Notes: generated from the sequence alone by a model not told the origin. Counted from the stretch's first letter, positions 4,589 through 40,112 are shown. The stretch is 64,000 nucleotides of DNA from Naegleria gruberi (GCA_000004985.1 GG738932.1), one strand, 5' to 3'. Translations and numbers: made by a program.

Positions 4589-5038
4589 ATGCCATCTGCC
4601 ACCAATCATACAACATTCACTTTCCAATCTACTTCCCCAAATCACATGTTTGGCATTCTCAAAAGCCAGAAAACAATACAGCTGTCAAAACATGAATCAG
4701 TTTTTTGTTTGACATCTGGCATTGACTTACAATTCACGCCAACCAAAAAGCAAACCAAGAAAAGAACCAACAAGAAAACTTCCAACAAGAATAATCTTTT
4801 AGAAAATTTATCTGATTGCACAACAAGTGAAATTTCACAAGATTCGACAATGTCACTAATCATTTCACAACATGTCAAACCACAAACTCAATTTATAGCT
4901 TCTCCACAACAAACTCCATCAATTTCGAATACAACAAGTTCAAATTTGCCAAAATCATCACTTTCGTCCAATGCAAATACGAATGTCAGTAAGAAAGTTA
5001 TTCGAACTTCAATTTCCATTCGAGAATTATTAAATTAA
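4589..5038 (+). CDS. SMFGV/SISIRELLN-family protein, member A (divergent)
   Basis: ORF ends in RTSISIRELLN. Its internal NHMFGILKSQK...HESVF is a degenerate version of the family core motif. S/T/N-rich low-complexity body. A-rich leader before ATG. Confidence 0.5.
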   Translation: MPSATNHTTFTFQSTSPNHMFGILKSQKTIQLSKHESVFCLTSGIDLQFTPTKKQTKKRTNKKTSNKNNLLENLSDCTTSEISQDSTMSLIISQHVKPQTQFIASPQQTPSISNTTSSNLPKSSLSSNANTNVSKKVIRTSISIRELLN

Positions 5039-5529
5039 AATTTAATTTTCATTGAAAAAACAAGGTTCGCACAACAAACATTAAAAAATGGTATTAATTC
5101 AAGATTTAATTTCCAAAATGATCAAACTCTTTCCATTTTTGTAAAATTTAAATATTATTTAAAAATAAATTTAATTTCTCAAAAAATCAAATTGTTCTTT
5201 TCAATTCCTGATGAAATTTATCATTGCAAGGAGATCTTGTGCTCTGATGAAGAGAACTACCTCCAAAAAGACAATAATCTAAACCTGTTCGATCACATCA
5301 ACTTTTTATGACCCAGTGAATTTGTCAATTGGGCACAAATTCGTGGAGCTGTCCAAACAGAAACTAAAGAAACAGCAAAGCCTATTCCAGTTGTGTGATC
5401 TTTCCACATGATCTCAGTTCATAATAGACACAAGAAAACACAATGCTAATAATAAAAATATAATTTTATTTAATTATTGAAATATGTGGAAAGATTTCCA
5501 ACCTTGAAATTTACCTAGTTGGAAAATTT

Positions 5530-6310
5530 ACCATTAGTGAATTTTATTGATGGTGTGATGATGATGACCATTAAGATATTTACCTTAATGATCGGACTTG
5601 CTGATGATATTGATGATAAAAGATATGATGAAGTGAAAATTCCACAACTCGATGAATACTAAGTGGAAAATTCAAACTCTCTTGATGGTGATATTAGACA
5701 TCCCTACTAATGATACTACGTTGTTGAAATTCAATCATCATGATGAAAATATATGGTGAATGATGAATACACCACCAACAAGGTGAAAACTCCAAATATC
5801 CAAAAACTATTATTCGGAGTGTTGTTGATGATGTATTTGAATGGTACTATTCGAAGAAAGTTTGGTTGATGATGAAGTACATGTTGAAATATGGTCCATG
5901 TAATATTTTGAATATATGCATGTACCTATCTTGATGAAAACAAAATTCCAATCTATGAAATTCGAATATGTATTGCTTTATACTATTACAAATAATCCCA
6001 CATATGAATTTCTGATGATGATTCACCAACTTTAATTTTTCCAATAACAAAATTACTATCTAATTCCATAACAATAAACTTCCACATAAAATTACTATTA
6101 TTACTATTATATTGATGATGTATAGATGATGAGGTTCAATTCTTGGAGTGGGAAGATGAAGAACCACTCTGAAAATAAACTACTCATAAAATTGATATTT
6201 TTTATGAATGCTAGATACGTCTTTATTGAGTTTGCTGTATGATGAAAGTATAATAAAAATTACTACTGTAACTACTATTTAAATGATGTTGAGATGATGA
6301 TGTGAAAGTT
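5530..6310. repeat. degenerate TGATGA-rich minisatellite (about 50-60 bp units, GTGAAAAYTCCA...TGATGA)
   Basis: At least 13 TGATGA/TGATGATG motifs occur in about 780 bp with no ORF. Recurring unit starts gtgaaaattcca, gtggaaaattcaa, ggtgaaaactcca and gttgaaattcaa precede each TGATGA block. Confidence 0.5.
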
Positions 6311-6833
6311 TGGTAGCTTACAGATATGAAACCACTCAAAGAATCATCAAGTCATTGACTTTATTTTTAGGTCTTCATTAAGTTGATCAGGTGAAACGGT
6401 TTCAAGATGCTTTCTTCTCTCACCCAAAGAAGTGATGGTGTTGAAAATTAGCATCAAGGTTCTTTTCAGAACCAGCTTTGTTGTTATCTAAGGTCAACCA
6501 TAGAGAAGAGTGATACTGAGCTACTATTGTCAGTTACTAGGATGTAACTTGACTTGTTGGTAGAAGTTGAAGATTTGTTTGCTGAAACTCTTTGACGAAT
6601 GTTAGAGATATTCGTTTTGCTTGGTGTTTGAATTATTTCAATACACTTTCTTTTGTTGAGCATAAAAATTATTTATCAACTCAATTTTATTGTTTACAAT
6701 TTGTGTTTAAATACTAATGTTACATCGTTCCTCACAACTCTACACTACTTTATCTCAGTAAACTTTAATAAAAACACCTTTCTTAATTGAGTTTGACGAA
6801 TTGATCAGTTCAATAATAATAATTTTACTGAGA

Positions 6834-7724
6834 TTAGTGTAATCTAGTTTTTCCACTACCTGGACATCTTTCTGGACAAGTATTTAAATCAGCATCGTGG
6901 AATAAAAAGTGCATTGTTGTGAACATGGTAAGACTACTTTCATGCTTCATACAATCATCAGAACAAAAGTTCTTACAGAATAACCATGGAATGAATGGAC
7001 CTTCCCATTGACCAATTGGATAACATTCTTGAACACTGTGTGAATAGAATAAGACAGCAGAAACTTGACCTTCATGATACATTGGAATAACTGGAACCAA
7101 AGTTTTACTCCAACCACTCAAGTGTGGAGCAGTGTAAACGTCATACCCAAAGTGGGTTCCCATCCCTTGGATACATGCCCCTTTAATGAATTGACGAGCA
7201 GTAGCTAACTTGTCAGTAAGTGGAATTTCAAAATTAAGCTTTCCTGGTTGGACAATTAAACGATCACCAATTGGTCCTCCATAAATGTCAGTATCTAAAG
7301 AGCATGCAAACTTTGGATCACGAGTAGCAATATCAATTTGATATCTATCTTTGGAGAGCTTGGTCCAAAATCCTGGAACAGTTGATCCATTCTTTAATTC
7401 CTCATGTAATTGAACTCCAAATCCACTCAATTGTCCCTTATTGGTATAATAAACAATAACTCTATTATTAATATATGGAATGCCCAAATATTCATGACAT
7501 ACACGAGCACCATCCAACAATTTCCATTCATTAGAGGCAACAGCAGCACTTTCGTTCAATGGAATTGGAGTTTTGCTGAAGAATGTATGTGTCAAACGAT
7601 CACCCAATCCTTGGAATTTAGTAACCGATCTAGTATTTTGAATCATCTTGTCCAATTCAATACCTTGAAGTTCAGAGACAATCATCATCATGATAACAAC
7701 AACAGCAAAAGCCACCTTCATCAT
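6834..7724 (-). CDS. secreted hypothetical protein (about 297 aa)
   Basis: Internal ATG-ATG at 7724/7721 gives MMKVAFAVVVIMMMIVSELQG, a signal peptide. It is followed by a Cys-containing globular region (GACIQGMGTHFGYDVY...CKNFCSDDCMKHE). No confident family assignment. Confidence 0.5.
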   Translation of the reverse strand: MMKVAFAVVVIMMMIVSELQGIELDKMIQNTRSVTKFQGLGDRLTHTFFSKTPIPLNESAAVASNEWKLLDGARVCHEYLGIPYINNRVIVYYTNKGQLSGFGVQLHEELKNGSTVPGFWTKLSKDRYQIDIATRDPKFACSLDTDIYGGPIGDRLIVQPGKLNFEIPLTDKLATARQFIKGACIQGMGTHFGYDVYTAPHLSGWSKTLVPVIPMYHEGQVSAVLFYSHSVQECYPIGQWEGPFIPWLFCKNFCSDDCMKHESSLTMFTTMHFLFHDADLNTCPERCPGSGKTRLH

Positions 7725-10700: not shown

Positions 10701-11204
10701 ATGTCTACAACACATCTATTCAATACTCTCAACAATAGTGCTAACAGATATCGTCACACTAGTCCTCATTCCATCATGATGATGTCAACTAACAATATTC
10801 TGCATTCGTCTCCTTCCACACTTTCGAATAATACCTTTCCAATAACCAAAGTGATTAAAAACAATGCAGTACCACATACACAGCAATCCAAGATAACAAA
10901 GCCATCCAAAACTAAAAAGGCAACCTATTTGGAAGGTTTCGACACTGTTTCTTTCACTGCCAATCAATCAATGTTTGGCGTTACTAGAAAACGAAAGAGT
11001 AAACCAATCGAATATGAACAAGTTTTGAATTTTGGTTGTATTGCTCCTCCTTCCAGTGAGAATAGTGTCATTCCACGAAAGATGAGACAATCTCTTGATA
11101 ATTATTCAAGCGTTTCGTCCACTTCTTCCACAACGACGTCAAATGAAAGAACGAGTCCAAGAATTGTGAGAACTTCCATTAGTATTCGAGAATTGTTGAA
11201 TTGA
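10701..11204 (+). CDS. SMFGV/SISIRELLN-family protein, member B
   Basis: Contains VSFTANQSMFGVTRKRKSKPIEYEQVLNF and ends RTSISIRELLN. ATG at 10701 after an A8 leader. Confidence 0.55.
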   Translation: MSTTHLFNTLNNSANRYRHTSPHSIMMMSTNNILHSSPSTLSNNTFPITKVIKNNAVPHTQQSKITKPSKTKKATYLEGFDTVSFTANQSMFGVTRKRKSKPIEYEQVLNFGCIAPPSSENSVIPRKMRQSLDNYSSVSSTSSTTTSNERTSPRIVRTSISIRELLN

Positions 11205-12862: not shown

Positions 12863-12966
12863 CAGTTACAACAAGTTCATAATACGAGTACAAAGCTTTT
12901 TGAAGTTGACCAAGATATCATGTAAGAGTAGAATATTTTTGGACTATTAAATATATGAACATGAAG

Positions 12967-13039
12967 CTGGCGTAGCTCAGTCGGTAGAGCGTTGGTCTAA
13001 TAAGCCATTGGTCGCCGGTTCGATCCCGTCCGTCAGCAG
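12967..13039 (+). tRNA. tRNA-Ile (anticodon AAU), copy 1
   Basis: GCTGGCG-TA-GCTC-AGTCGGTA-GAGC... anticodon loop CTAATAA ...GGTTCGATCC...CGTCAGC-A. Perfect acceptor and D stems. Anticodon stem has a U27-U43 mismatch and the T stem a C50-U64 mismatch. Identical to the copy at 42744..42816. Confidence 0.6.
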
Positions 13040-13154
13040 ATAATTTTGATTTTTATCACAAGTTAAATTTATTTAAGCAAAATTGCAAAACTTCACAAAC
13101 TTCTTGATTTCAAATCATTCTCTCAAAATTTTCAAAAATTCTTTTCTTTTCCAT

Positions 13155-18749: not shown

Positions 18750-18879
18750 TTATTCAACTTTAATCGTAGTAGGGTTTTTAACCTTACACATTTTAAATTA
18801 AATAATTTTGATAATTAATATTTAAAAAAAATTCATCAACATCTAACAATAAGAAACGTTTTCATCTTTCAAAAATTAG

Positions 18880-19875: not shown

Positions 19876-20162
19876 TTCATCAACAAATTGGTCACTCAAC
19901 AAATTTTTCCTGAATAAGCTCAAAATGATTTTTGGCTTGTGGCGACCTAAACTTACGTTTACGTTTAAGGACAGAGGAAAGGACTAAAATAGCACACATT
20001 TTGCTATTTGTGTAATCTCCAATTGATTATGGAAATTATAAAGTGTTGCGAGATTTAGCGAGATTAGAGGTTCTCGTTGGACAAGCTTTACGTTTTTAAT
20101 TGTGGCGTTATTAATGACACATAGAAAGACATCAAAATATCAATTACAAGAAAAAAAACAAG

Positions 20163-20699
20163 ATGGTACAAAAGCAAGTGAGAGATTCAAACAAGAAGAA
20201 TTTAATTGGGTCAATTAGTTCACCACAAAAGATTGGCAAACAAAACAATAACATGCTGAAAGCTCCAAGTTTTGATTTTGATGTTGTGAGTTTCACCAAT
20301 AATCACAGCATGTTTGCCACATCAAGACAGAGAAAAGCACCTGTGCAAGCTTATGAACAAGTACTTATTCTGCAACCTCAAACTCTCATTAGTTCTCATG
20401 AGCTTGAAATGCCTAGAAAAAAGCAGAAGAAACATCGAGTGACTGGGTCCAAGATTTTTGAAACTACTCTACCTGAAGATTTACATCCACCTCAAACAAG
20501 AGTCACAACTACATGCATAGCATCTTCATGCAACTGCTCTACATCCTCATCATTGAATGTATCAATGCAAACACCTTCTTCACCTGACCAGTTTATGATC
20601 GGTTACAATAATCAGCAGCTTAATACCAGCACTAAATCTTCATCCAGTTCTTCACGTATTCATCGCTCATCAATTTCAATCAGAGAATTGTTAAATTGA
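20163..20699 (+). CDS. SMFGV/SISIRELLN-family protein, member C
   Basis: FDFDVVSFTNNHSMFATSRQRKAPVQAYEQVLIL and C-terminal RSSISIRELLN. Confidence 0.55.
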   Translation: MVQKQVRDSNKKNLIGSISSPQKIGKQNNNMLKAPSFDFDVVSFTNNHSMFATSRQRKAPVQAYEQVLILQPQTLISSHELEMPRKKQKKHRVTGSKIFETTLPEDLHPPQTRVTTTCIASSCNCSTSSSLNVSMQTPSSPDQFMIGYNNQQLNTSTKSSSSSSRIHRSSISIRELLN

Positions 20700-20893
20700 C
20701 CGTTTCATTAAGCTAGGTCTAAAAATGGTCAACTAACATATTTGTAACGACACGTGTCTAACCACAAAGTAACAGATATTCCAGATCAGTAATTGACCAC
20801 AACAGCGTAAAATTGTCAAACATTATTCTTTTGGGATTGGTTTTTCTAATGTGAAGGTCATGGTTTTATGGTGCTGTTAAAAAGTTAAAAAAT

Positions 20894-21280
20894 ATGCCAC
20901 AACAGCATACCGATAGCAGATCAGCACATAACAGCCAACAACAATGCAACAAGACAAAGAGTTCAGTACCAGTATTTGTTTTGAATGATGTCTTGAACAC
21001 TAGAGTTGAATACACTGTCCACAAGTCCATGTTTGGTGTCATTAAAAAGAGAAAGACGACTGTTCAGAGCTATGAAACTGTTCTTTATTTTAATCGTAAG
21101 GAAGAAACCAAAGCTTCTGGAATTCAAAAACAGCAGAAGAAACCAATTCAATTAAATATCCAACAAGCACAACACAAATCATCTTATTTACCTGTACAAT
21201 CTAGGCCAATAAGAACAAAAATATCCATTAAAGAGTTGCTCAATCCACAACCTGAGATTTTCATTACCCCCAATCAATAA
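20894..21280 (+). CDS. SMFGV/SISIRELLN-family protein, member D (tandem to C)
   Basis: EYTVHKSMFGVIKKRKTTVQSYETVLYFN and near-C-terminal KISIKELLN, followed by an 11-aa extension. Confidence 0.5.
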   Translation: MPQQHTDSRSAHNSQQQCNKTKSSVPVFVLNDVLNTRVEYTVHKSMFGVIKKRKTTVQSYETVLYFNRKEETKASGIQKQQKKPIQLNIQQAQHKSSYLPVQSRPIRTKISIKELLNPQPEIFITPNQ

Positions 21281-21324
21281 ATGTTTCCAAATGTTTAAAT
21301 ATATTTGCTTGTGATGATTGAAAA

Positions 21325-24716: not shown

Positions 24717-25394
24717 ATGAACACCACTATCACTTCTTCCACTGGTTCTTCCTCCAAATCCAAAACCAGAGGACGCATTCAAAAGAAGGCACCAAGAAGA
24801 CAGAAAACCTTCTCTCTCTTCTCCAATCACAATATCCAATCCACAAGTTTCAAAGTACTGCAGAGCACAGAGAATTCCATGATGGGAGTATTCAAAAAGA
24901 CGAGAAGTATGTGCAGTTTGGCTTCATACGAATCTGTTTGGAATATGAACAATACCATGATACAGAACTCTATGCCACAACAGCCATGTGTACATTCAAA
25001 TTGTCCTCCAATAATAGTCACTCTTACTTCCTCTCCATCCAATAATCATACGCAACAACAATCACCTACTAATACCACTCCTTGTACTGCCAGTAGAAAG
25101 AAGAGAGTCATGTCTTCATCTTCCTTGTCGAGTATGTGTGATTCCTCATCTTCAGAAAACACAATAATTGCAGCTCCAATTAATATCATACCCTCAATGC
25201 AAGGATGCCATCCAATATTGCCTCATTCACAATCCTCTCCACAACAAGTCAACATTAGCTCCTTGAATATAACTCCAATCATGCAACCATCCATTGTTGA
25301 AATGACAACAGAATCTCTCTCGCCTTCATCACCAGGGCAATATTTCAAAAAAGGAAGAATCCAAATGCCAACATTAAGGGAGCTCTTGAATTGA
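24717..25394 (+). CDS. SMFGV/SISIRELLN-family protein, member E (divergent)
   Basis: FKVLQSTENSMMGVFKKTRSMCSLASYESVWNMN and C-terminal MPTLRELLN. Confidence 0.5.
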   Translation: MNTTITSSTGSSSKSKTRGRIQKKAPRRQKTFSLFSNHNIQSTSFKVLQSTENSMMGVFKKTRSMCSLASYESVWNMNNTMIQNSMPQQPCVHSNCPPIIVTLTSSPSNNHTQQQSPTNTTPCTASRKKRVMSSSSLSSMCDSSSSENTIIAAPINIIPSMQGCHPILPHSQSSPQQVNISSLNITPIMQPSIVEMTTESLSPSSPGQYFKKGRIQMPTLRELLN

Positions 25395-27398: not shown

Positions 27399-27470
27399 TA
27401 GCAAATCTAGGTTTCGATCCTAGGACCTATGGGTTATGAGCCCATCGCGCTTCCACTGCGCCAATTTGCT
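27399..27470 (-). tRNA. initiator tRNA-Met (CAU)
   Basis: Minus-strand read is AGCAAAT-TG-GCGC-AGTGGAA-GCGC-G-ATGGG-CTCATAA-CCCAT-AGGTC-CTAGG-ATCGAAA-CCTAG-ATTTGCT-A. A1:U72, A54 and A60 (ATCGAAA T-loop) are eukaryotic initiator hallmarks. Confidence 0.8.
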
Positions 27471-29296: not shown

Positions 29297-31528
29297 TTAC
29301 AAAATTGAAATATCCTCAAAGGAGCTTTCAGTCTTAACTTCATTTTGAGGGGAGATGACTACTGCAGATTCGTTTCTGATCAAGTCAATTTCACTCTTTC
29401 CAAACATCATTTGCTTTTCAGCTAATTTTCTATAGACACCATCTTCCTTCTTGATTAATTCGTGGTGAGTTCCTGATTCTTTCAATTCTCCCTTAACGAG
29501 TACATAAATGGTATCACAGTTTTGAATAGTACTCAATCTGTGAGCAATACAGATGGAGGTTCTTCCCTTCATGAGATTGTCAAGAGCTGCTTGAACGAGA
29601 CCTTCACTTTCAGTGTCGAGGGCTGAGGTGGCTTCGTCCAAAAGGAGGACTTGTGGATCTTGGAGAATGGCTCTTGCAATGGCAACACGTTGTTTTTGAC
29701 CACCTGATAAGGAAACACCCTTTTCACCCAGTTTAGTTTCATAACCATCTGGTAACTCCATAATAAAGGTATGACAATTGGCAGCTTTGGCAGCGTGTTC
29801 AATTTGTTCTTGAGAGACATTTTCAGCACCAACAGCATAGGCAATATTTTCTCTAATTGAAGTGGCAAACAATACAGGTTCTATAATTTTCAAATTAATT
29901 ATTAGAAATGAAACATTTTTAAACATACCTTGAGTGACAATACCAATATTTCTATGGAGCCATTGAGGATCAATTTCCTTAATATTATATCCATCAATTA
30001 TAATTTCACCTTCTTGTGGATCATAGAAACGTTCCAATAGACCAACAATGGTTGACTTTCCTGATCCTGATGGACCAACCAAAGCAACAGAAGTTCCTGG
30101 CTTGATATCAATTGAGAAATCAGACAAGACAACTGCATTTGGACGGGATGGGTAAATAAACTTGACATTCTTAACTTGAATGGAACCTTTCAACTTTTCT
30201 TCTGGAGCTTTTCCTCCTGCAAATGGAATTGCTGGACTTCTCTTTAAAACTTTGAGAATGGTTCTTTGAGACATTTGAGCTTTGGAAAATTCTGGAATTT
30301 GAGTACCAGCTTGAGAAAGACCAATAACACCAAATAGCATCATACCGAAAACTTTCATCATTTGACCAACTGTTATGGTATTTTCTGCAACCAAGCCACC
30401 TCCATACTATATTATCATTCCACAATAATTATTCCATTACATGACGATTGTAAAATATTTAAAACGATATGATGAATTAATACTACTTACCCAGAAGGCT
30501 AAGGCAATAGTTCCCCAGAGAATGAATGATACTGAGGCAAAAGTAGTTCCTTGCAAGATGGCTTTGAACAAGCCATAAGTACTAATATTCTTTAAATCTT
30601 TGGCAAATCTATCTTGTTCCTTTTGTTCACAACCCATTGATTTAACAGTTCTAAAACTTGAAACAACTTCAGTTGCAATCGATGCAGAATGTTCCGTAGC
30701 TCCATTTGTCTTTTTAGTTAAATATTCAACAACCTTAGACAAGACACCAACACCAAACACCAACAATGGAGAGGTTGAAATCATGCCAAGGGACATTTGC
30801 CAAGATGAAACAAAGGCAAGGACAATACCAATAATGAATTGGGCAGTGTTTTGTAAAAGGAGAGCCAATTTGTTAGAGTAGACTTCTTGAATTTTGGACA
30901 CGTCTTCACTCAATGCAACTGTCAATGCACCAGTCTTCTTAATATCAAAGAAACCCATCTCTTGAGTTGTCAATGCATTGAAATAGGCCTTTCTCAAAGC
31001 AACACCAATTCTTTCACTTGCCAAATTTAAAAAGAATTGAGAGAGCAAACTGGCCACAGCAGATCCTGCAGCAATAATTGCAAACTTGATAGCAATATCT
31101 GAAACACTTGCTTTCATAGAGTCAACAGTTGGAACGACACCATTCTTTGGCTGGAAAACATCCACCAAATCACCCATGACAAATTGAAAACACAATGGAA
31201 TGACACCATTACCCAAACTACCAATTGCTCCAATCACTACCAGCAACCAATTCCATCCAAAAATCTTGAAAATGATCATGTTATCCTTTCCAGTAATATT
31301 CGGCTCTTGTTCATCTTTGATTTCATCAACATTTGATTTCTCATCAGCCTTCTTCTTTTTGAATCGTTTGAAGGGATTTCTACTTGGTCGGGTTGCTGTT
31401 TCTTGAGGAGATTTTGTGTTCTGTTCATCAACAACTAGATGTGTTGTAGAGGTGGAATTTACTTGCTCCTTATCGAGAGAAGTAGCAGCATTAGAAGCTC
31501 CTCCCTTAGTATCTTCCTTTTTAGTCAT
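29297..31528 (-). CDS. ABC transporter, ABCB-type half transporter (TMD-NBD), 3 exons
   Basis: Exons are 31528..30491, 30384..29919 and 29870..29297. Intron 1 is 30385..30490 (GTAAGT...TTGCAG). Intron 2 is 29871..29918 (GTATGT...TTATAG) and lies in frame inside an ORF. Six-TM region. Walker A GPSGSGKST, Q-loop IGIVTQ/EPVLFATSIRENI split by intron 2, ABC signature LSGGQKQRVAIARAIL, Walker B LLLDEATSALD and H-loop IAHRLSTI. Confidence 0.8.
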
Positions 31529-32538: not shown

Positions 32539-33147
32539 TCAATTGAGAATTTCCTTGATTGAAATGCTAAATCTTGATGGAGGTTTTGAGTAAGAGGAAG
32601 ATGTTGTTGTTGTGGAATGGTTAAAGTTGTGACAATTGGCATGTTCTTCAATGGCTGGTGGTGAGGGTATTGTTGTGAGTGTTGATGACTTGCCATTCGT
32701 AGATGTGGTACTATCCTGTACTACAGATTCTGTCTTTTTTGATTTTCTTGTTGGAGTTTGTTTCGAAACCTTTCGTCTATGAGTTGAAGACCCTTCCATG
32801 TCCATGCCTTTCATTAGTAAAACTCCTTCCATTGGAGTGGTATTTATCTTTTCAGAGTATTGAAAAACAGCAAACATTGAATTGTTGCATGTAGTTTCTA
32901 ATACTTTCAAATTGGCATTTCCAATAAATTGGAATGAAGTCTTGTCTTGTTTTCTCTTTCCAATTCTTGTTGGCAGCATGGCAACGTTTGATGATGGAGG
33001 AGACCCTTGGTGACATGCTCTTTTAATCATGTTTTCTTGTGATCTTTCTCCAAATCTTGTTGTTGGCATTTGTTTTTGTTTATTGATTCGAATATCAATA
33101 AAACAGCATCCTTCAAAATCACACACAACATGTGAACAAGATAGCAT
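32539..33147 (-). CDS. SMFGV/SISIRELLN-family protein, member F
   Basis: NLKVLETTCNNSMFAVFQYSEK...MEGVLLM and C-terminal RFSISIKEILN. Confidence 0.5.
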   Translation of the reverse strand: MLSCSHVVCDFEGCCFIDIRINKQKQMPTTRFGERSQENMIKRACHQGSPPSSNVAMLPTRIGKRKQDKTSFQFIGNANLKVLETTCNNSMFAVFQYSEKINTTPMEGVLLMKGMDMEGSSTHRRKVSKQTPTRKSKKTESVVQDSTTSTNGKSSTLTTIPSPPAIEEHANCHNFNHSTTTTSSSYSKPPSRFSISIKEILN

Positions 33148-33334
33148 TTGGAGAGGAAGCGTTAAAACTTTATGTCCTGTGTGTATTTTCGGTATTCCAC
33201 ATTACAATCCATGCATGCATGCGAGCACAATCTTGGAATAAATTGGTGCGAATTGTTCAAATATGTGAGAATTGAGCGACCTACCTCTGTTGGAAACTCA
33301 ACCCAAACTGAGATTTAGATAACAAGCAGAAACT

Positions 33335-34816
33335 TCATTTGAACAATTCCTTTATTGAAGGAATGATTGTTCTTGGTAATGAATGAGATGCAAGAGAATT
33401 ATTTTTCTTATCTAAATTCTGAACTGGTGTTGGTGTTGGAATTATGGGATGTTTAGATTGAGTCATCAATTCAGAAGATTCAATTGAATTACTATTATTA
33501 TTGGGATATGATACAAGATCTGTTGTTTGGTTGTTATTGACAGTTCCAGTTGTTGAGTCTTGTTTTGCAATTTGCTTTTCAGAAAAAAGCAGATCCGTGG
33601 CTGATGTGAAACTGACCGATCTTGAAATCGTACCATAATTCAGGTTTGCTAAATCTCGTTTTGGTTGACTACCAAAAGAAGGTCCAATAATGGGTTGTAA
33701 AGTTGTGTGACTTGGATCTGCAATTACATGATTCGAAGATGAGAAGTATTGCTGTTGTATACTCTCCTTTGGATTAGTTGTTGATTGGTTTACATTGTGT
33801 GAATTGTGTGAAAGAATGTTGTTAAATCCAATATTGGAAGCAACGGGATAGTTGTTCGACACTATTGGATTTGGAAATGTGCCTTGTTGGGAAATATTAG
33901 CACCAGTGCTAGAGGAATTGGAAGATGGATTATGAATGGGTGATGGAGTGGTGAGAGTTTGCGTTTCAGTTTGTGAATTGCTGCTTGATGCTTGTGGAGT
34001 TTTAAATTGATCACCACCATTATTCGTACTATTCGATGATGATGCTGAACCAGGATTGAAATTGAGCACTGTTTCGTAAGCTTGTTGAGTAGGTTTCTTC
34101 TTGAAAACTCCAAACATTGCATTATTATCAGTCATTGAGAGTAGATCAAAACTCGAAACCTGAACTTGTTTTCCACTCTTTCGTTTTTTAGAATTTTTCT
34201 CCACATGTATTTCCTCATTATCCTGATATTGATCCACAGAAGAAGATGATTGATTATTTGTAATTTTGAAATGATTGCATCCCTCGAAAACTTCCTTCTT
34301 CTTTCTCTTTCTCTTTTCCTTATTAATAACTGCTGTATGAAAAGTTAACGTATTTCCATTATCAACCATTGGAAGAATAGCATGTTGTTGTTGCTGCTGC
34401 TGCTGTTGAAAATGATTGTCAACCAGCACTGTGGTTGTTACTCTCGATTGATTTTTGCTAACCTGTTGTTCATAATTAATGAAATGATGATTCGAATAAT
34501 TTCTAACTTGTTGCTGATCATTCACCACCACAACACTCGCACTATTTATATTACTACTTCCTATTCTCATTTCATTATTCATCGCCACTATCATCCCATT
34601 ATTGTCATCATTCTGAGTCAAGTTCATTTGAGCGGCAACCTCCTTTTTCTTCTTTCTCAAATTCGCTTGTTGATTATTTTGATGCGTTCCTTGATATTGT
34701 TGTTGATGATGCTGATGATGAGAATTGGAATGACCAACATGTTGATTATTTTGATGGCCATCACGTATAGCCTTTGTTTGTTGGTGTAGTAAAGGTGGCG
34801 GGAGTTTTTCTGACAT
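33335..34816 (-). CDS. SMFGV/SISIRELLN-family protein, member G (longest, Q/N/S-rich), tandem to F
   Basis: FDLLSMTDNNAMFGVFKKKPTQQAYETVLNFN and C-terminal TIIPSIKELFK. Poly-Q and His/Gln-rich N-terminus. Confidence 0.5.
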   Translation of the reverse strand: MSEKLPPPLLHQQTKAIRDGHQNNQHVGHSNSHHQHHQQQYQGTHQNNQQANLRKKKKEVAAQMNLTQNDDNNGMIVAMNNEMRIGSSNINSASVVVVNDQQQVRNYSNHHFINYEQQVSKNQSRVTTTVLVDNHFQQQQQQQQHAILPMVDNGNTLTFHTAVINKEKRKRKKKEVFEGCNHFKITNNQSSSSVDQYQDNEEIHVEKNSKKRKSGKQVQVSSFDLLSMTDNNAMFGVFKKKPTQQAYETVLNFNPGSASSSNSTNNGGDQFKTPQASSSNSQTETQTLTTPSPIHNPSSNSSSTGANISQQGTFPNPIVSNNYPVASNIGFNNILSHNSHNVNQSTTNPKESIQQQYFSSSNHVIADPSHTTLQPIIGPSFGSQPKRDLANLNYGTISRSVSFTSATDLLFSEKQIAKQDSTTGTVNNNQTTDLVSYPNNNSNSIESSELMTQSKHPIIPTPTPVQNLDKKNNSLASHSLPRTIIPSIKELFK

Positions 34817-34884
34817 TTTTTTTGAGAGGCGATTTTTGGAAAGTTTGAAACCCTAAATTATGTTGATGCGGGATTGCTTACGAA

Positions 34885-34992
34885 TATTATTTTTTTAATG
34901 GAAAGAGATGGGATTGTTGATAGTGTTGGATTGGCTCTTTCAATGTGACAAGTGGCGTGAATTGACAGAGTTTCGAATAGATAAACTTTTGA
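34885..34992. repeat. dispersed about 100 bp repeat R1, copy a (upstream of family member G)
   Basis: ttttttTAATGGAAAGAG...GACAAGTGGCGTGAATTGACAGAGTTTCGAATAGATAAACTTTTGA is about 80% identical to 38630..38725. Confidence 0.5.
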
Positions 34993-35524
34993 GTAATTGG
35001 GAAGCATTTAGAGAAGTTTGAATGATTACAAGTTTGTTGACAAACTATTAATTCTCTATAATAATTCACAGTCTTACTGAGAGTGCTCTCAAGTACAATA
35101 TGATGTATTCTATTATTTGAGAAACTTTGATAATTCTCAAACAAATTCATCCTTCACTGAAATGTTTCACCACATTTCGTCTATCATTTAAATATTAAGA
35201 ATGATTTGAAGAGTAGTTCAACAATCGAAAAGTGAAGATTCAAGTGGATTCTAGTTTAGTGCTGAACAACACTAAAATATATTAAATTTCACTATTATCA
35301 AATTTATTTCCACAAATATTACTGTTATAATGATGATAAATAACAATGATGATAGTAGTTGTTCCGATGATGGTGTATTACCAACTTGAATTTTTCCAAA
35401 TCATATGTGAAGAATTAAATTCCAAAAATTACTATTATTTAAAATGATGTGGTGAAATTCTTGGGTTTATAGATGTGAAATTACTCCAAGAATCAACACA
35501 GAGCATTTTCCAATATTTTTTTCT

Positions 35525-35614
35525 AGAAATTGTTCCAATGAAAATTCGAACTTTAAAAATTCTGTTGACTGACCTTCACAATAGGAAGTTCGAATTTTCA
35601 TTGGAACAATTTCT
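35525..35614. repeat. perfect 29-bp inverted repeat (hairpin) with 32-nt spacer
   Basis: AGAAATTGTTCCAATGAAAATTCGAACTT at 35525..35553 and its exact reverse complement at 35586..35614. Confidence 0.6.
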
Positions 35615-35971
35615 AAGGTCAGTTAGCAGTATTTTTAAAATATGATGATGATGATCATCGGGTTACACTTCTTCTCGATCACGATATTATCCACTCTTCT
35701 GTCCAGATAATTACAAATCCACACAACAGAAATAAACTCTGTCTGATGTATATTCCGATTATTGAGTGGTTTCCTTTGGACATGCTTGCCGGATGGAGTG
35801 ATAAACCCTATCTTTATGCATCCCAATTGACAGCCATCATGAGATACACACTTGAAAGAGATTGTCAACCATTGAGTGAAATTTTGATCGAACATTTCAA
35901 TTATTAATCATTCCATCACGAGTTAAAGCAAATCCTTTTGATTTATTTCTTGAAATTGTTTCGAATATTAG

Positions 35972-36190
35972 AATGGTAAAACTCTTCAATATGCTTCTGA
36001 TAGATTGAAGAAGGACAGGAATATTGCCTTGAAAGCTGTAAAATCCTCAATTGAGGCATTGGAGTATGTTGGAATTTCATTAAGAAATGCTGAATTTATT
36101 TGTTATTGTTTAGAGGAAAGAGCACTTTCTACCAAAACTCAAACTATTCGAATGGATGTTGACAAGTTGTGTGAACCTAGCGACTCTTTA
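35972..36190 (+). pseudogene. duplicated 3'-terminal fragment of the downstream DUF4116-like gene
   Basis: 35972..36130 aligns at high identity to 38245..38395 (AATGGTAAAACTCTTCAATATG-TTCTGATAGATTGAAGAA...GAATTTATTTGTTATTG). ORF 36005..36256 translates to a paralog of the parent C-terminus (..AVKSS.ASL.Y.G..FRN.EFICYCLE..). Confidence 0.5.
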
Positions 36191-36299
36191 TATTGTATAA
36201 TAGTGGCATTTGTTTTGAAAAGTAAAATTTACATTTATGGAAAGTCTTCAAAATAATTTAAATAGAAATTACTTGACATTCATTAATTTACTATAAAAA

Positions 36300-38450
36300 A
36301 TGATTAGTCAAGTTTCGGCTGTTACGTCTGTACCATTCGAACAGAAGAGTAAAATACCAACACCTAAATACAATTATGTTAATATCATTCTAGACGAAAC
36401 AATTCAATCAGATTTATTAATCAAAAAGTTAAAATACCAAACCACAGAATTACAGCTCTTTCTAATACATTATCCTATTCTCGATTGGTTTCCTCTACAA
36501 ATGATAGGAACAAACACCAAACCTGGCCTTGATCGTTCCCAATTCACAGCCATTATCAAACATAGAATTGAACAGAACCACCAACTTATATCCAACATTA
36601 TTGGTTTGTGTGATTGTGACGACAAGTACAATTCATTCACTTCCATCCTGAAAATGCCAGATTTTAATGTGGATTGTAATTTGGAAGAGTTTGAAGAGCA
36701 AGCTAGAAAGCAACGTGTTAAAATGTTCTTGGCAGGGTTGTTGGAAGATAGGGATATTGCTTGGATAGCACTTGGTAGTAATTTTAAGTTTAGGCATATT
36801 TCGGATAGATTTAAGGAAGATTATCAAGTTGTTTTACAAGCTGTAAAATATGATACTAAAGCTTTTGAATTGGTTTCTGATAGATTTAAAGATGATGAGA
36901 GAATAGTTTTCGAAGCTGTTAGAAACTGTGGCAGCAATCTCAAATTTGCATCTGAAAGATTGAAAGACAATAACCAGATTATTCTAAAAGCCATCAAGAA
37001 GAATACATCAGCAATTATGTATGCCTCAAAGAGATTCAAAGATTACTTTGGCGAATTACTTTCTGATAGTGAGCTACTCCAATTAGAAAGATTTGAAAAA
37101 GATTCGTCTGATTTATTCTTCAACGAAGGGTTTGACAATGAACTGCTCATGTTAGAATTTGTCAAGTTAAATACAAGGTCTCTCAGAAAGGCATCCGATC
37201 GATTGAGGGATAATCAAACAATTGTGTTGGAAGCTATCAGGAGAAATGCCATGTCGTTGTGTTATGCATCTGACAGATTGAGAGATACTGAGATGGTTGT
37301 GATGGAAGCAGTTACACAAGAACCTCAAATGATGAAGTATGCTTCCAATAGATTGAAAGATAATAAGCAGTTTGTGTTGAAGATCATGAAATCATTGGGA
37401 TACTCGTATGATCTTTCTTTGGTTCAGTATTTATCGAAACTATTGCAAGATGATGAGCAAATTATTATAGAAGAAATCAAGAGAGACCAATCACCACTCT
37501 TTTTTGCATCTGAAAGGTTGCAAGACAATGAAGAAATTGTAATGAAAGCAGTCAACCAAAATGGAATGTCACTTTATTGTGCTTCCGAGAGATTGAAGGA
37601 TAATGAAAAGATTGTTTTGGAAGCGGTTCGAAATACTAGTGAAGCCCTTACTTATGCATCCAATAGATTGAAAGATAGTGAACTAGTTCTGATGGCAGCC
37701 ATTTGTCATGGTCGTTTGTGCAAGGCTCTTTCGTATGCTTCTGAAAGATTGCAAGATAACGAATTGATTGTTTTGGAATCTGTCAAGAAGAATGGGTCTA
37801 TGCTTGGATATGCATCTGATCGATTGAAATATCATGAACAAATTGTTTTGGAAGCAATTAAACAGGAACGATCATCAATAGAAAATATCACTTCTGCAAG
37901 ATTGAAAGATACTGAAACGATTATATTGGAATTGGTTAAGGATTCTACCATGAAACATGTACATAATCTGGAAATTGATGAATATGAGTTTCATTCCTCA
38001 GGCAGTGAAGTACGTTCTGATTTATTTAATGAATATTGTTCTGAAAGATTGAAAAACGATTCACAATTCATGTTAAAAGTATTGGCAAGCAAGTGGAGAG
38101 GTGGAATCGCACATGGACTTTCAGATAACAAGCAATTTATGCTTGAGGCAATTAAGCTCAATTGTTGGGCAATTGATTCAGCTTCCGAACAATTAAGAGA
38201 CGATGAAGAGGTTGTAAAGGCAGCTATTTCTCAAAATGGTAAAACTCTTCAATATGTTTCTGATAGATTGAAGAATGACATAACTATAGTCTCAAGTGCA
38301 GTGAAATCCTCAGTTGCCTCCTTAAAGTACATTGGTGAAAAGTTCAGAAATGTTGAATTTATTTGTTATTGCTTGGAGAATCAATTGATTTCTTCCAAAC
38401 CTTCAAATGTTGTTAAGGAAATACCATTCTTTGGAAATTTACATTTCTAA
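36300..38450 (+). CDS. DUF4116-like tandem-repeat protein (716 aa)
   Basis: About 14 copies of a 34-37 aa repeat ASxRLKDNxxIVLEAVKxNGxxLxYAS (ASERLKDNNQIILKAIKKNTSAIMYAS; ASDRLRDNQTIVLEAIRRNAMSLCYAS; ASERLQDNEEIVMKAVNQNGMSLYCAS and others). I recall this pattern as Pfam DUF4116 but cannot verify it here. Confidence 0.6.
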   Translation: MISQVSAVTSVPFEQKSKIPTPKYNYVNIILDETIQSDLLIKKLKYQTTELQLFLIHYPILDWFPLQMIGTNTKPGLDRSQFTAIIKHRIEQNHQLISNIIGLCDCDDKYNSFTSILKMPDFNVDCNLEEFEEQARKQRVKMFLAGLLEDRDIAWIALGSNFKFRHISDRFKEDYQVVLQAVKYDTKAFELVSDRFKDDERIVFEAVRNCGSNLKFASERLKDNNQIILKAIKKNTSAIMYASKRFKDYFGELLSDSELLQLERFEKDSSDLFFNEGFDNELLMLEFVKLNTRSLRKASDRLRDNQTIVLEAIRRNAMSLCYASDRLRDTEMVVMEAVTQEPQMMKYASNRLKDNKQFVLKIMKSLGYSYDLSLVQYLSKLLQDDEQIIIEEIKRDQSPLFFASERLQDNEEIVMKAVNQNGMSLYCASERLKDNEKIVLEAVRNTSEALTYASNRLKDSELVLMAAICHGRLCKALSYASERLQDNELIVLESVKKNGSMLGYASDRLKYHEQIVLEAIKQERSSIENITSARLKDTETIILELVKDSTMKHVHNLEIDEYEFHSSGSEVRSDLFNEYCSERLKNDSQFMLKVLASKWRGGIAHGLSDNKQFMLEAIKLNCWAIDSASEQLRDDEEVVKAAISQNGKTLQYVSDRLKNDITIVSSAVKSSVASLKYIGEKFRNVEFICYCLENQLISSKPSNVVKEIPFFGNLHF

Positions 38451-38629
38451 TCATCCATTAGAAACACATCATCAACAAGAATATTAAGAAACAACAATTA
38501 ATTCCTTATTAAATTATTTGGAATTTCTATTTAAACTTCCCTTTATTCACATGTTATCCCGAATGCCCAAGCTCACATGTTGTTTCCTCCAAGAATGGCT
38601 GACACAATCTATTATGCATGTGAGATTGT

Positions 38630-38725
38630 TGAATATTTTTTTAATGGAAAGAGGAATTGCTGATTGTGTTGGAATACTATGACAAGTGGCGTGAATTGAT
38701 AGTGTTTCGAATAGATAAACTTTTG
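38630..38725. repeat. dispersed repeat R1, copy b
   Basis: tttttttAATGGAAAGAGGAATTGCTGATTGTGTTGGAATACTATGACAAGTGGCGTGAATTGATAGTGTTTCGAATAGATAAACTTTTGA. See copy a. Confidence 0.5.
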
Positions 38726-39359
38726 AATTGGAAACGGTTGAGCTTTTATCAAAGAAAAAGGAATATTTAAAGTGAAAGAAAGCCGGTTAGTTTTTGGGGG
38801 TCGGTTGCCTAGCGAAACTTTTTCATAAAAATCATCTCAATGTGAAGGGAGTGTCCTTATCCACCGCATTTATATTTCACAATTGTTGAATGAGCTCTAT
38901 CCTTTCAACAATTGTGAAATATTAGATCACTTTAACAGATCTTGACGAAACTTTGAATTTTTATTCGAAATATTGTTTAAATCTGAAGATGGCAAAATCC
39001 TTGTTGTTTATTTCTCAGAGTTTCTAACAAAATAAATATTGAGGGAAATGTGGTGCGTTGAGAATATGCAAGGAGAGCTTTCGAATATGGTAATTAAGAG
39101 ACCAAAACTTGCTCTTGTTATAATATTGCCAAATTAGAATTTTGGAAAGCATGTCAACACACACATGATATCAAGTAAACAATGCATTATCATATTCTAA
39201 ACCTTTCTAATAATCATTTTGCAACTAAACAAAGAGGAAGGTCTTTCTGAAAATGCAAATTGAAAGATAACAAGGAGACCACTAAAAACGGACTGTGTCC
39301 ACCCTCAAAACAACCTTGTGAGGTAGTTTCCAATAGAGGCACATGTGAAAAAGGTCTAA

Positions 39360-40112
39360 TTATGGCTTTTTTCGTTTCTTCTTGTTTGTTGATTGGATTT
39401 GAGATTCTTGGTGTGGACTCCAAGAACGAGTTGTTGTTGTTGGTGGCGTTTTCACACGTTGATTTGAATTGCTACTAGAAGTATCTGAAAGGTTTAGAAT
39501 AGTTTCGTATGAAGCCATATTCGCATGTTTTGGTTTTTTCATCACTCCAAAAATTGAATTATTTCCTGTATATTCCAATTGAAAATCTCTTGTATTGTTG
39601 ATTAGAGGAGAGCTTGGTTCATTTCGGCTCTTTCTCTTCTTGATGGTATTGTTATTAGAAAGAGGTGTTGAAGAATTATTCGAAAGTAAAGATGTCTTTT
39701 CACTATTTGAATGTATTATTTTCTTTGTGTTTTCCACATGATTGTAATCATGATTCAATAATATTGGCGGCAATTGAGAAGCATGTTTAGAGTTTAGTCT
39801 ATCAATATCTGAAAAGATAACAGACGAAAGTGAAGGAAGGATTGTTCTTGTTGGTGAGTTTCCAATACTTGCTCCATGAATGCTTGTTGGAAGAGTATGT
39901 CCACTCTGAACAGGATTAATTGTTGAAAAGGTTGAAGTACTATTGGAAATGTTATTAGAATCTTTTGGAGGTGATTCAATAATCTTGTAATGTTCCATGA
40001 GAGTTTTCTTCCTTCTGGTTTTCTTGATAGGTTTAATTGCTGGACTCTTCGCCAAATCTTCTGAGTCGGTGACTGAATGTTCTTGATTCTGTTGGAAACT
40101 GGACGAATTCAT
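39360..40112 (-). CDS. SMFGV-family protein, member H (C-terminal SISIRELLN motif not found)
   Basis: RDFQLEYTGNNSIFGVMKKPKHANMASYETILNL matches the core motif. The ORF ends ...KKKRKKP without the SIRELLN tail. No downstream exon encoding it was found. Confidence 0.4.
   Translation of the reverse strand: MNSSSFQQNQEHSVTDSEDLAKSPAIKPIKKTRRKKTLMEHYKIIESPPKDSNNISNSTSTFSTINPVQSGHTLPTSIHGASIGNSPTRTILPSLSSVIFSDIDRLNSKHASQLPPILLNHDYNHVENTKKIIHSNSEKTSLLSNNSSTPLSNNNTIKKRKSRNEPSSPLINNTRDFQLEYTGNNSIFGVMKKPKHANMASYETILNLSDTSSSNSNQRVKTPPTTTTRSWSPHQESQIQSTNKKKRKKP

What the first reader, a model, noticed from the sequence alone, without database searches (positions are those of the whole stretch)
4589..40112. 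Cluster of 8 fast-diverging paralogs sharing only two short motifs: core NNSMFGV-KK[RK]K-x(3-7)-YE[TQ]VLNF and C-terminal S-I-S-I-R-E-L-L-N
Eight ORFs lie at 4589, 10701, 20163, 20894, 24717 (+ strand) and 33147, 34816, 40112 (- strand). All carry the block [FS]FD..V.S[FM]T.NNSMFGV[FT]KK[RK]K...[AS]YE[TQ]VLNF (examples: ANQSMFGVTRKRKSKPIEYEQVLNF; NNAMFGVFKKKPTQQAYETVLNFN; NNSIFGVMKKPKHANMASYETILNL). Seven of the eight end with SISIRELLN or a close variant (RTSISIRELLN in two members, RSSISIRELLN, KISIKELLN, RFSISIKEILN, MPTLRELLN, IIPSIKELFK). Between and around the motifs the proteins are S/T/N/Q-rich, length-variable (128-493 aa) and essentially unalignable. That pattern suggests disordered proteins held together by two short linear motifs rather than a folded domain. 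The basic KKRK stretch is NLS-like and the tail IRELL resembles an [IL]xxLL interaction motif. I recognise no known family, so this looks like a lineage-specific expanding family. Members sit in two tandem pairs (C/D and F/G). Orientation switches from + to - across the middle of the window.
Basis: seen in the sequence. Interest (0 to 1): 0.8.

Follow-up and report, generated by a model that had tools for sequence, protein, structure and literature searches.

The report
Naegleria-only family of small disordered proteins
The eight ORFs are a real, previously undescribed family of small, basic, mostly disordered proteins, seen only in the amoeba genus Naegleria and expanded in N. gruberi, that share two short conserved modules whose binding partners are unknown.

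Summary
The window is Naegleria gruberi DNA. All eight ORFs sit at the stated coordinates. All eight carry motif 1 (T-x-NNSMFGV-KKRK-x-YExVL); seven carry the tail R-x-SISIRELLN. Leave-one-out profiles rank each left-out member's motif 1 above all ~1040 other ORF segments of the window. An exhaustive profile search of 1.84 billion protein representatives found 12 hits. All are Naegleria or Naegleria-like metagenome sequences, and every full-length new member carries both motifs. There is a ninth N. gruberi paralog on another scaffold, and one copy each was detected in N. fowleri and N. lovaniensis. There are no Pfam or PDB matches and no literature mentions. AlphaFold2 gives pTM 0.20: only a beta-hairpin over motif 1 and a short C-terminal helix over RELL(N) are confident. 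All members are basic (pI 9.2-10.4) and carry K/R clusters. The N. fowleri/N. lovaniensis orthologs have dN/dS 0.21, with conservation concentrated in the motifs. My best reading is nuclear, disordered adaptor or regulator proteins with two separable docking modules. The partners are unknown. Resemblances to eh1, LxxLL, B56 LxxIxE and Cip/Kip motifs fail or only partly pass explicit tests. No expression data were reachable. This is a genuine orphan family of moderate interest, not 0.8.

The parts
4589..5038 (+). m1, 149 aa. Degenerate motif 1 (4604-4720: STSPNHMFGILKSQK..HESVF). Perfect tail RTSISIRELLN (5003-5035).
   Evidence: No NCBI protein for it. A strain variant (L001) has a 10-nt deletion that frameshifts the tail.
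10701..11204 (+). m2, 167 aa (XP_002669070, NAEGRDRAFT_82239). Motif 1 at 10926-11042. Tail RTSISIRELLN at 11169-11201.
   Evidence: AlphaFold2 target: beta-hairpin at residues 82-85/91-94 and helix at 162-166, pTM 0.20.
20163..20699 (+). m3, 178 aa. Motif 1 at 20262-20381. Tail RSSISIRELLN at 20664-20696. First gene of tandem pair m3/m4.
   Evidence: In NCBI it exists only inside the 711-aa fused model XP_002669071.
20894..21280 (+). m4, 128 aa. Motif 1 at 20978-21100. Tail RTKISIKELLN at 21212-21244, followed by 11 more residues.
   Evidence: No NCBI protein. Closest paralog of the off-window member P0009 (40% identity over 100 aa).
24717..25394 (+). m5, 225 aa (XP_002669072, NAEGRDRAFT_75978). 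Motif 1 at 24831-24956. Long-type tail RIQMPTLRELLN at 25356-25391.
   Evidence: The strain variant P0015 has lost the stop codon (TGA to TGG) and runs on for 33 aa.
32539..33147 (-). m6, 202-aa ORF (annotated as the 163-aa XP_002669098, NAEGRDRAFT_75983). Degenerate motif 1 at 32803-32925. Tail RFSISIKEILN at 32542-32574. Tandem with m7.
   Evidence: The N-terminus differs between strains (P0005).
33335..34816 (-). m7, 493 aa (XP_002669099, NAEGRDRAFT_54441). Motif 1 at 34046-34165. Long-type tail RTIIPSIKELFK at 33338-33373.
39360..40112 (-). m8, 250 aa (XP_002669100, NAEGRDRAFT_54443). Motif 1 at 39480-39599. No tail; ends in KKKRKKP.

Best explanation
These are real protein-coding genes of a Naegleria-restricted family of small, strongly basic, mostly disordered proteins.

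Each protein carries up to two autonomous short modules separated by a free-evolving S/T/N/Q-rich linker:
- Module 1 is about 35 residues. A beta-hairpin (..V.[FY]T / SMFGV) is followed by a K/R cluster that looks like a monopartite nuclear localisation signal, then YExVL.
- Module 2 is a usually C-terminal R-x-[ST]-hydrophobic strand that runs into a short helix, [IL]xE[LI][LF][NK].

Inferred mechanism, not shown. The basic clusters take the proteins into the nucleus. There the two modules dock independently onto conserved partner proteins, so each paralog acts as an adaptor or competitor that links or blocks those partners. An ancestral gene, still apparently single-copy in N. fowleri and N. 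lovaniensis, was duplicated repeatedly in N. gruberi by birth-and-death evolution. This gave at least 9 copies, some of which have lost one module (m8 the tail; m1 and m6 most of module 1).

Shown: family reality, taxonomic restriction, purifying selection on the motifs, lack of a global fold, separability of the modules.
Inferred: nuclear location, partner docking, adaptor or decoy role.
For: Reality and specificity:
- Leave-one-out profiles recover every member's motif 1 far above background.
- An exhaustive search of 1.84e9 representatives returns only 12 proteins, all Naegleria or Naegleria-like. The searching profile contained both motifs, so their co-occurrence in the hits is expected rather than independent. 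The full-length new members carry both: P0009 (N. gruberi, other scaffold), P0010/P0017 (metagenome), and the N. fowleri FDP41_003475 and N. lovaniensis C9374_002682 proteins.

Selection:
- N. fowleri versus N. lovaniensis orthologs have dN/dS 0.21. Identity is concentrated in an N-terminal KKRRSNKKS run, motif 1, one extra island (FFIKSGFLFVKP) and the tail.
- Between N. gruberi strains, m1-m4 show 7 synonymous and 5 non-synonymous changes. pN/pS is 0.20, and a binomial test against neutrality gives P = 0.007.
- ORFs of 128-493 codons are intact in a 33% GC genome.

Disorder with two local elements:
- AlphaFold2 gives pTM 0.20 for both the 167-aa and the 92-aa construct. Only the hairpin (pLDDT 80-86 in the full-length model, about 80 in the shorter construct) and the terminal helix (pLDDT about 66-80) are confident.
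- Composition agrees.

Modules are separable:
- m8 keeps a good motif 1 (36.9 bits when left out) with no tail.
- m1 and m6 keep good tails with eroded motif 1.

Basic and nuclear-like: pI 9.2-10.4, net charge +7 to +16, and at least one K/R cluster in all 12 proteins tested.

Old duplications: no nucleotide-level repeats between copies.
Against: - No transcript or protein evidence could be obtained. All near-identical database copies come from genomic or metagenomic assemblies, and paper and supplement searches were empty.
- No partner is identified.
- Nuclear targeting is inferred from composition only. The strict K[KR]x[KR] pattern is absent from m1, m2, m6 and P0017, although they have other K/R runs.
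- In a second N. gruberi-like strain, m1 carries a frameshifting 10-nt deletion, m5 has lost its stop codon and m3 has R to I in the tail. Some copies may therefore be dispensable or decaying.
- The alignments given to AlphaFold2 were shallow (8-10 sequences), which lowers confidence regardless of true order.
- The copy-number contrast with N. fowleri and N. lovaniensis rests on annotated proteins and two 20-kb loci, not on whole-genome scans.
Confidence: 0.55

Rival explanations
1. The ORFs are decaying pseudogenes, or non-functional ORFs left by old duplications. The shared motifs are simply the slowest-decaying remnants.
For: There is no expression evidence. In a 97-98% identical strain, m1 has a 10-nt frameshifting deletion, m5 has lost its stop codon and m3 has R to I in the tail. 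m8 lacks the tail, and m1 and m6 have eroded motif 1. Two members have no NCBI gene model.
Against: All eight frames are open for 128-493 codons in an AT-rich genome where stop codons are frequent. Both motifs are retained across species whose synonymous sites are saturated (dS 1.45, dN/dS 0.21). Strain-level pN/pS is 0.20, P = 0.007 against neutrality, and is not higher than in the neighbouring MFS transporter. Decay would not preserve two specific 10-35 residue islands in 12 sequences.
Confidence: 0.1
2. Motif 1 and the tail are two halves of one small folded domain (hairpin plus strand/helix) interrupted by a variable insert. They are not independent linear motifs.
For: The two elements co-occur in 11 of 12 full-length members. 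AlphaFold2 gives both elements locally elevated confidence.
Against: pTM stays at 0.20 even for the 92-aa construct with the shortest linker. The only strand pairing predicted is within the hairpin. Linker length varies from about 35 to about 220 residues. m8 keeps a well-conserved motif 1 without any tail, and m1 and m6 keep the tail with eroded motif 1. The tail is followed by 11-33 extra residues in m4, P0009 and P0015.
Confidence: 0.08
3. The family is a highly diverged branch of a known motif-defined regulator class. Candidates are Cip/Kip-KRP type CDK inhibitors (SMFG versus RNLFG, hairpin), eh1/Groucho-recruiting repressors (ISIRELL versus FSIxxIL), or PP2A-B56 LxxIxE clients.
For: A relaxed eh1 pattern with an aliphatic first residue fits 7 of 11 tails. 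LxxIxE fits 4 of 11 tails (m7, P0009, N. fowleri, N. lovaniensis). A minimal [RK]xL[FLMP] pattern fits 8 of 11 tails. The overall style (small, basic, disordered, rapidly duplicating, short motifs only) resembles plant KRP/SIAMESE families, which is my own knowledge.
Against: The strict eh1, PIP-box and KEN patterns give 0/12 (KEN: one incidental hit outside the motifs), and the D-box pattern gives only two scattered hits. Pfam CDI is not hit. hhalign of the motif-1 profile against the p27 kinase-inhibitory domain gives probability 0.07%. Profiles against all PDB sequences give nothing at E<=10. The residues that are actually invariant (Glu followed by two hydrophobics) are not the defining residues of any of these motifs. 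No pattern is met by all members.
Confidence: 0.12
4. Some of the ORFs are 3'-terminal exons of larger spliced genes rather than independent small genes, as in the JGI model that joins m3 to two upstream ORFs.
For: XP_002669071 (711 aa) splices ORFs 17784-18749 and 18880-19875 onto m3 through an AG acceptor just upstream of the m3 ATG. N. gruberi genes in this window are often split by introns (MFS, ABC, Sec1 and G8/CEMIP ORF pairs).
Against: Five of the eight start codons sit in the same A-rich context (AAAAAAAC..ATG), against 2 of 23 control ORFs. Five other members are annotated as single-exon genes of exactly the ORF length or shorter. The homologs in N. fowleri and N. lovaniensis are stand-alone 180-aa genes.
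Confidence: 0.1

Closest known systems
Plant KRP/SIAMESE-related and animal Cip/Kip CDK-inhibitor families (analogy of kind, not homology)
   Same: Small, basic, intrinsically disordered, fast-evolving paralog families that are recognisable only by a few short docking motifs. The string [NQ]SMFGV superficially recalls RNLFGPV, and a beta-hairpin is predicted next to it.
   Different: No detectable relationship. Pfam CDI is not hit, hhalign against the p27 KID gives 0.07%, and there is no PDB sequence hit. The Arg of RxL is absent, and the spacing between FD and YE is about twice that in CDI domains.
eh1 / TN motif (FSIxxIL) that recruits Groucho/TLE WD40 corepressors
   Same: A seven-residue hydrophobic-S-hydrophobic-x-x-hydrophobic-L core (ISIRELL, LSIKELL) in basic, probably nuclear proteins, predicted to be helical.
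   Different: The defining aromatic first residue is missing in all members (strict pattern 0/12). The invariant Glu is not an eh1 feature. No Groucho/TLE ortholog was identified here. The WD40 gene next to the N. fowleri and N. lovaniensis members is a generic WD40 protein.
PP2A-B56 docking motif LxxIxE
   Same: The long-type, probably ancestral tails match the pattern: LPSIKE (P0009), MLSIKE and MLSIYE (N. fowleri, N. lovaniensis) and IPSIKE (m7). B56 is pan-eukaryotic, which is my own knowledge.
   Different: The five SISI[RK]E-type tails of the N. gruberi cluster, and m5 and P0017, do not match. The conserved LL/LF after Glu, the upstream Arg and the near-terminal position are not part of the B56 motif.
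LxxLL nuclear-receptor box / [IL]xxLL helices
   Same: All 11 tails match [IL]xx[IL][LF] and are predicted to be helical.
   Different: Strict LxxLL occurs only in m5 and P0017. Nuclear receptors are metazoan, which is my own knowledge, so the partner would have to be something else.

Membership tests
Any Pfam family or domain | Score above the gathering threshold against a Pfam-A HMM | tested here: not met
   The 8 window proteins were scanned at E<=1. Only three sub-threshold chance hits appeared (13.9-14.6 bits against cut-offs of 22-25).
Cip/Kip-KRP CDK inhibitors (Pfam CDI) | Sequence similarity to the kinase-inhibitory domain (RxLFG ... WNFDF ... YEW) | tested here: not met
   No CDI hit in Pfam. 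PDB profile searches, which include p27 and p21 chains, gave nothing at E<=10.
Cip/Kip-KRP CDK inhibitors (Pfam CDI) | Binding to and inhibition of cyclin-CDK | not testable with these tools
   Needs binding or kinase assays, or multimer prediction.
eh1 / Groucho-recruiting motif | Aromatic or His residue at motif position 1 (pattern .[FYH].[IVM]xx[ILM][ILMV]., recalled from memory) | tested here: not met
   0 of 12 members match. A relaxed version with an aliphatic first residue fits 7 of 11 tails.
eh1 / Groucho-recruiting motif | Presence of, and binding to, a Groucho/TLE/Tup1-type WD40 corepressor | not tested
   The N. gruberi proteome could not be queried. The neighbouring WD40 gene in N. 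lovaniensis is generic: its best PDB matches are designed WD40 proteins (WRAP-T) and then WDR5, with Tup1 only far down the list.
PP2A-B56 LxxIxE clients | Match to ([LMFYWIC]..I.E)|(L..[IVLWC].E) at the conserved site in all members (pattern recalled from memory) | tested here: inconclusive
   4 of 11 tails match (m7, P0009, N. fowleri, N. lovaniensis) and 7 do not.
LxxLL nuclear-receptor box | Strict [^P]L[^P][^P]LL[^P] | tested here: not met
   Only m5 and P0017 match. All 11 tails fit the looser [IL]xx[IL][LF].
PCNA PIP box / APC/C degrons (D-box, KEN) | Match to the consensus at a conserved position | tested here: not met
   PIP 0/12. The D-box pattern gives 2 scattered hits and KEN gives 1, none at a conserved column.
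Classical NLS-bearing nuclear proteins | A K/R cluster compatible with importin-alpha binding | tested here: met
   All 12 members have at least one K/R cluster, and pI is 9.2-10.4. The strict K[KR]x[KR] pattern is present in 8 of 12.
Classical NLS-bearing nuclear proteins | Nuclear localisation | not testable with these tools
   Requires tagged expression.

The most novel reading that the evidence does not exclude
The two modules define a previously unknown docking system. The hairpin-NLS-YExVL module and the RxS-hydrophobic-xELL tail each recruit a conserved eukaryotic hub, for example a phosphatase, cyclin or corepressor beta-propeller. That would make this a Naegleria-specific family of nuclear regulators. 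Its ninefold expansion in N. gruberi, including single-module 'decoy' copies, would then tune a lineage-specific programme such as the amoeba-to-flagellate switch or closed mitosis.
Probability: 0.15. Interest if true: 0.6.

Novelty: new member of a known kind. Interest (0 to 1): 0.35.

Why it matters
If the proteins are functional, the family would give Naegleria researchers two compact, mutable peptide handles for fishing out nuclear partners. One handle is a roughly 35-residue hairpin/basic module. The other is a roughly 11-residue tail with an invariant Glu followed by two hydrophobic residues. Almost nothing is known about transcriptional or cell-cycle regulators in this organism. The family is also a clean example of birth-and-death evolution of a disordered protein family in which only linear motifs are held constant. 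The contrast between one copy detected in the pathogen N. fowleri and at least nine in N. gruberi is striking. In practical terms, the analysis flags two unannotated genes (m1, m4) and one probably mis-fused gene model (XP_002669071) in the reference annotation. Without expression or interaction data, however, it remains one of many orphan families in protist genomes.

Tried and rejected
1. Pfam on all eight proteins: nothing.
2. PDB sequence-profile searches with the concatenated motifs and with a 12-sequence motif-1 alignment: zero hits at E<=10.
3. hhalign against the p27 KID: 0.07%. The Cip/Kip idea is dropped.
4. SLiM patterns recalled from memory (eh1, LxxLL, LxxIxE, PIP, RxL, D-box, KEN, Aurora site, SxIP): none is met by all members.
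5. Enrichment of S/T-P (CDK/MAPK) sites: 44 observed against 36.5 expected, not significant.
6. Shared promoter words in 300 nt upstream: only the A-rich leader stands out, with no specific element.
7. DNA-level repeats or transposon-like flanks around the paralogs: none. The one striking 90-nt perfect inverted repeat is a pair of tRNA-Ile genes.
8. Synteny. The N. fowleri and N. lovaniensis loci are syntenic with each other (WD40 gene, then the member, then a zf-CCCH gene). Only one gene there (homolog of window ORF 59202-61715) links them loosely to this window, and no member lies beside it.
9. The neighbouring WD40 gene as a possible Tup1/Groucho-like partner: it is a generic WD40 protein.
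10. A word-indexed protein search with a concatenated-motif alignment returned nothing. A local control shows the same profile scores all members at 30-70 bits, so this was a limit of the index, not a biological negative.
Degenerate DNA patterns were judged too unspecific to spend the single metagenome scan on.
12. Expression evidence. Exact-protein look-ups gave only genomic or metagenomic contigs. Literature and supplement searches on all locus tags and accessions were empty.
13. Fold search on the AlphaFold2 models was not run, because pTM 0.20 would make any match meaningless.

Full report
**Source and setting.** The window has about 33% GC and belongs to a 195-kb scaffold of Naegleria gruberi. 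Several window ORFs are identical to N. gruberi 'predicted proteins' XP_002669070, -072, -098, -099 and -100. The eight ORFs are scattered over 36 kb among ordinary eukaryotic genes. These include a PIP5K fragment, RCC1-like, ankyrin, MFS and ABC transporters, MAPEG, a DUF4116 repeat protein, purple acid phosphatase, Sec1, a receptor-type adenylate cyclase and G8/CEMIP.

**Checking the observation.**
- All eight ORFs and the quoted peptide strings are present at the stated coordinates.
- A regex scan of all six frames finds the two motifs only in these ORFs.
- In leave-one-out tests, a motif-1 profile built from seven members ranks the eighth immediately after them among 1050 ORF segments. Scores are 19-40 bits, except m1 at 12.9 bits (E 0.004). 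The best unrelated segment scores 5-7 bits.
- The tail is recovered the same way for m1-m4 and m6. It is not recovered for m5 and m7, whose tails are one residue longer (..MPTLRELLN, ..IIPSIKELFK).
- That longer form is the one found in the N. fowleri, N. lovaniensis, metagenomic and off-window N. gruberi members. With those sequences included, all seven window tails score 18.7-24.8 bits against 8.4 for the best background segment.

Small corrections to the finding:
- m4's tail is followed by 11 residues.
- m1 and m6 have eroded motif 1.
- m8 has no tail in any frame.
- There is no nucleotide-level similarity between copies, so these are old duplicates.

**Extent of the family.** A profile covering motif 1 through the C-terminus was searched against every one of 1.84 billion protein representatives. 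It returned 12 proteins at E<=1e-3. All are Naegleria or Naegleria-like:
- The window members, or 97-98% identical strain variants from one metagenome (ERZ929261).
- A ninth N. gruberi paralog on a different scaffold (XP_002679620, 147 aa).
- A metagenomic relative (133/186 aa).
- One 180-aa protein each in N. fowleri (FDP41_003475) and N. lovaniensis (C9374_002682).

Every full-length new member has both motifs. For example, N. fowleri has DKSMIAVSKRTKQDKCQPYEQVLDI ... RKGRTSMLSIKELLN-COOH. The searching profile contained both motifs, so this co-occurrence confirms the family but is not an independent test.

The 20.5-kb loci fetched around the N. fowleri and N. lovaniensis genes contain a single copy each and are syntenic with one another. 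Two window members (m1, m4) have no NCBI protein. m3 exists only inside a 711-aa model that splices it to two upstream ORFs.

No Pfam family, no PDB sequence and no paper matches the family.

**Are they functional genes?** Three lines of evidence point to purifying selection on the family as a whole:
- The N. fowleri and N. lovaniensis orthologs differ at saturated synonymous sites (dS 1.45) but have dN/dS 0.21. Identity is concentrated in four islands: an N-terminal KKRRSNKKS run, motif 1, a species-pair-specific FFIKSGFLFVKP island, and the tail.
- Between the reference and the metagenomic N. gruberi strain, m1-m4 show 7 synonymous and 5 non-synonymous changes. pN/pS is 0.20 and a binomial test against neutrality gives P = 0.007. 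This is no worse than the adjacent MFS transporter.
- Open frames of 128-493 codons are unlikely to persist by chance at 33% GC.

Against this, the other strain carries a 10-nt frameshifting deletion in m1, a stop-codon loss in m5 and an R-to-I change in the m3 tail. Individual copies may therefore be dispensable. This fits birth-and-death evolution. I could obtain no transcript or proteomic evidence.

**Structure.**
- AlphaFold2 on m2 (167 aa, 10-sequence alignment) gives mean pLDDT 57.5 and pTM 0.20.
- Only a beta-hairpin over motif 1 is confident (strands TVSF and MFGV, pLDDT 80-86), together with a short helix over RELLN (residue blocks at pLDDT 70 and 80).
- A 92-aa construct running from motif 1 to the C-terminus gives the same picture, again with pTM 0.20. 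The two elements are therefore not predicted to pack into one domain.
- Members are basic (pI 9.2-10.4, net charge +7 to +16). They contain 32-48% S/T/N/Q, against 21-30% for folded neighbours. Each has at least one K/R cluster.
- BLAST matches between paralogs fall on or around the two motifs. A few extend further at low identity.
- The modules are separable. m8 keeps a strong motif 1 with no tail, and m1 and m6 keep good tails with eroded motif 1.

**Most likely mechanism.** I commit to the following reading. These are nuclear, intrinsically disordered adaptor or regulator proteins. Module 1 (hairpin, NLS-like K/R run, YExVL) and module 2 (R-x-[ST]-hydrophobic strand running into [IL]xE[LI][LF][NK]) are independent docking elements for conserved partners. 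The N. gruberi expansion supplies variants and single-module competitors. The steps that are shown and those that are inferred are listed under the best explanation; confidence is about 0.55. Rivals are wholesale pseudogenes (0.1), a split mini-domain (0.08), a diverged branch of a known motif class (0.12) and terminal exons of larger genes (0.1 for some copies).

**Comparison with known systems.** Several resemblances recalled from memory were tested explicitly:
- Strict eh1 (FSIxxIL): 0/12, because the aromatic residue is missing. An aliphatic-relaxed form fits 7 of 11 tails.
- Strict LxxLL: 2/12. The loose [IL]xx[IL][LF] fits 11/11.
- PP2A-B56 LxxIxE: fits the four long-type tails (LPSIKE, MLSIKE, MLSIYE, IPSIKE) but not the SISIRELL type.
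- PIP box: 0/12. D-box and KEN patterns give only scattered hits at non-conserved positions.
- The [NQ]SMFGV versus RNLFGPV likeness to Cip/Kip inhibitors is not supported by Pfam, hhalign (0.07%) or PDB searches.
- The WD40 gene next to the N. fowleri and N. lovaniensis members is a generic WD40 protein.
- S/T-P sites are not enriched, and upstream regions share only an A-rich leader.

The family therefore works like other motif-only disordered regulator families, such as plant KRP/SIAMESE, but it is not a member of any of them.

**Verdict.** The family is real, undescribed, seen only in Naegleria and expanded in N. gruberi. Function, partners and even expression remain unknown, and orphan disordered families are common in protist genomes. 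I rate interest at 0.35 and classify it as a new member of a known kind (lineage-specific disordered families that carry short linear motifs). The most novel reading not excluded is a new docking system that controls a Naegleria-specific nuclear programme. I give that reading about 0.15 probability and an interest of 0.6 if true.

Noticed in passing
window 12958-13047 and 42735-42824: A perfect 90-nt inverted repeat 29.7 kb apart. It consists of two identical tRNA-Ile(AAT) genes (12966-13038 +, 42744-42816 -) with a few identical flanking bases. The pair brackets six of the eight family members and the point where gene orientation switches.
   Followed up: partly
window 27399-27470 (-), 51378-51449 (-), 62999-63084 (+): Further tRNA genes: Met(CAT), Pro(TGG) and an 86-nt Tyr(GTA) that probably contains an intron.
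   Followed up: no
window 17784-20699 (+): NCBI/JGI model XP_002669071 (711 aa) fuses ORFs 17784-18749 and 18880-19875 to family member m3. The A-rich start context of m3 and the stand-alone homologs suggest that this is a gene-model fusion error.
   Followed up: partly
window 4589-5038 and 20894-21280: Family members m1 and m4 have no protein in the NCBI N. gruberi annotation, although both are intact ORFs with both motifs. They are likely missed genes.
   Followed up: partly
window 35972-38450 (also 1742-1804, 34946-34992, 38680-38726): The DUF4116 repeat gene (36300-38450) is built of 75-nt periodic units. A 74-78% identical partial copy of its 3' end lies just upstream (35972-36148), and another DUF4116-like unit sits at 1742-1804. 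A 47-nt, 96% identical direct repeat flanks the gene.
   Followed up: no
window 35524-35615: A perfect 30-nt inverted repeat with a 32-nt loop (hairpin) in the intergenic region between m7 and the DUF4116 gene.
   Followed up: no
L001, L004, L006 (metagenome ERZ929261 / run ERR1078381), matching window 4399-6238, 19890-23451 and the m2 locus (10701-11204): A metagenome contains a second N. gruberi-like strain, 97-98% identical at the DNA level. It carries a 10-nt deletion in m1, TGA to TGG stop loss in m5 (protein P0015) and R to I in the m3 tail.
   Followed up: yes
window 59202-61715 (-) and L002 11532-13381: The 837-aa ORF with no Pfam domain is homologous to a gene lying next-but-one to the family member in N. 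lovaniensis. This is the only trace of synteny between the single-copy locus and this window.
   Followed up: partly
window 21325-23366, 29297-31528, 43333-45192, 52795-55857: Adjacent same-strand ORFs carry consecutive parts of one Pfam domain or one domain architecture (MFS transporter; ABC membrane plus ATPase; Sec1; G8/CEMIP). These are spliced genes with short introns rather than separate ORFs.
   Followed up: no
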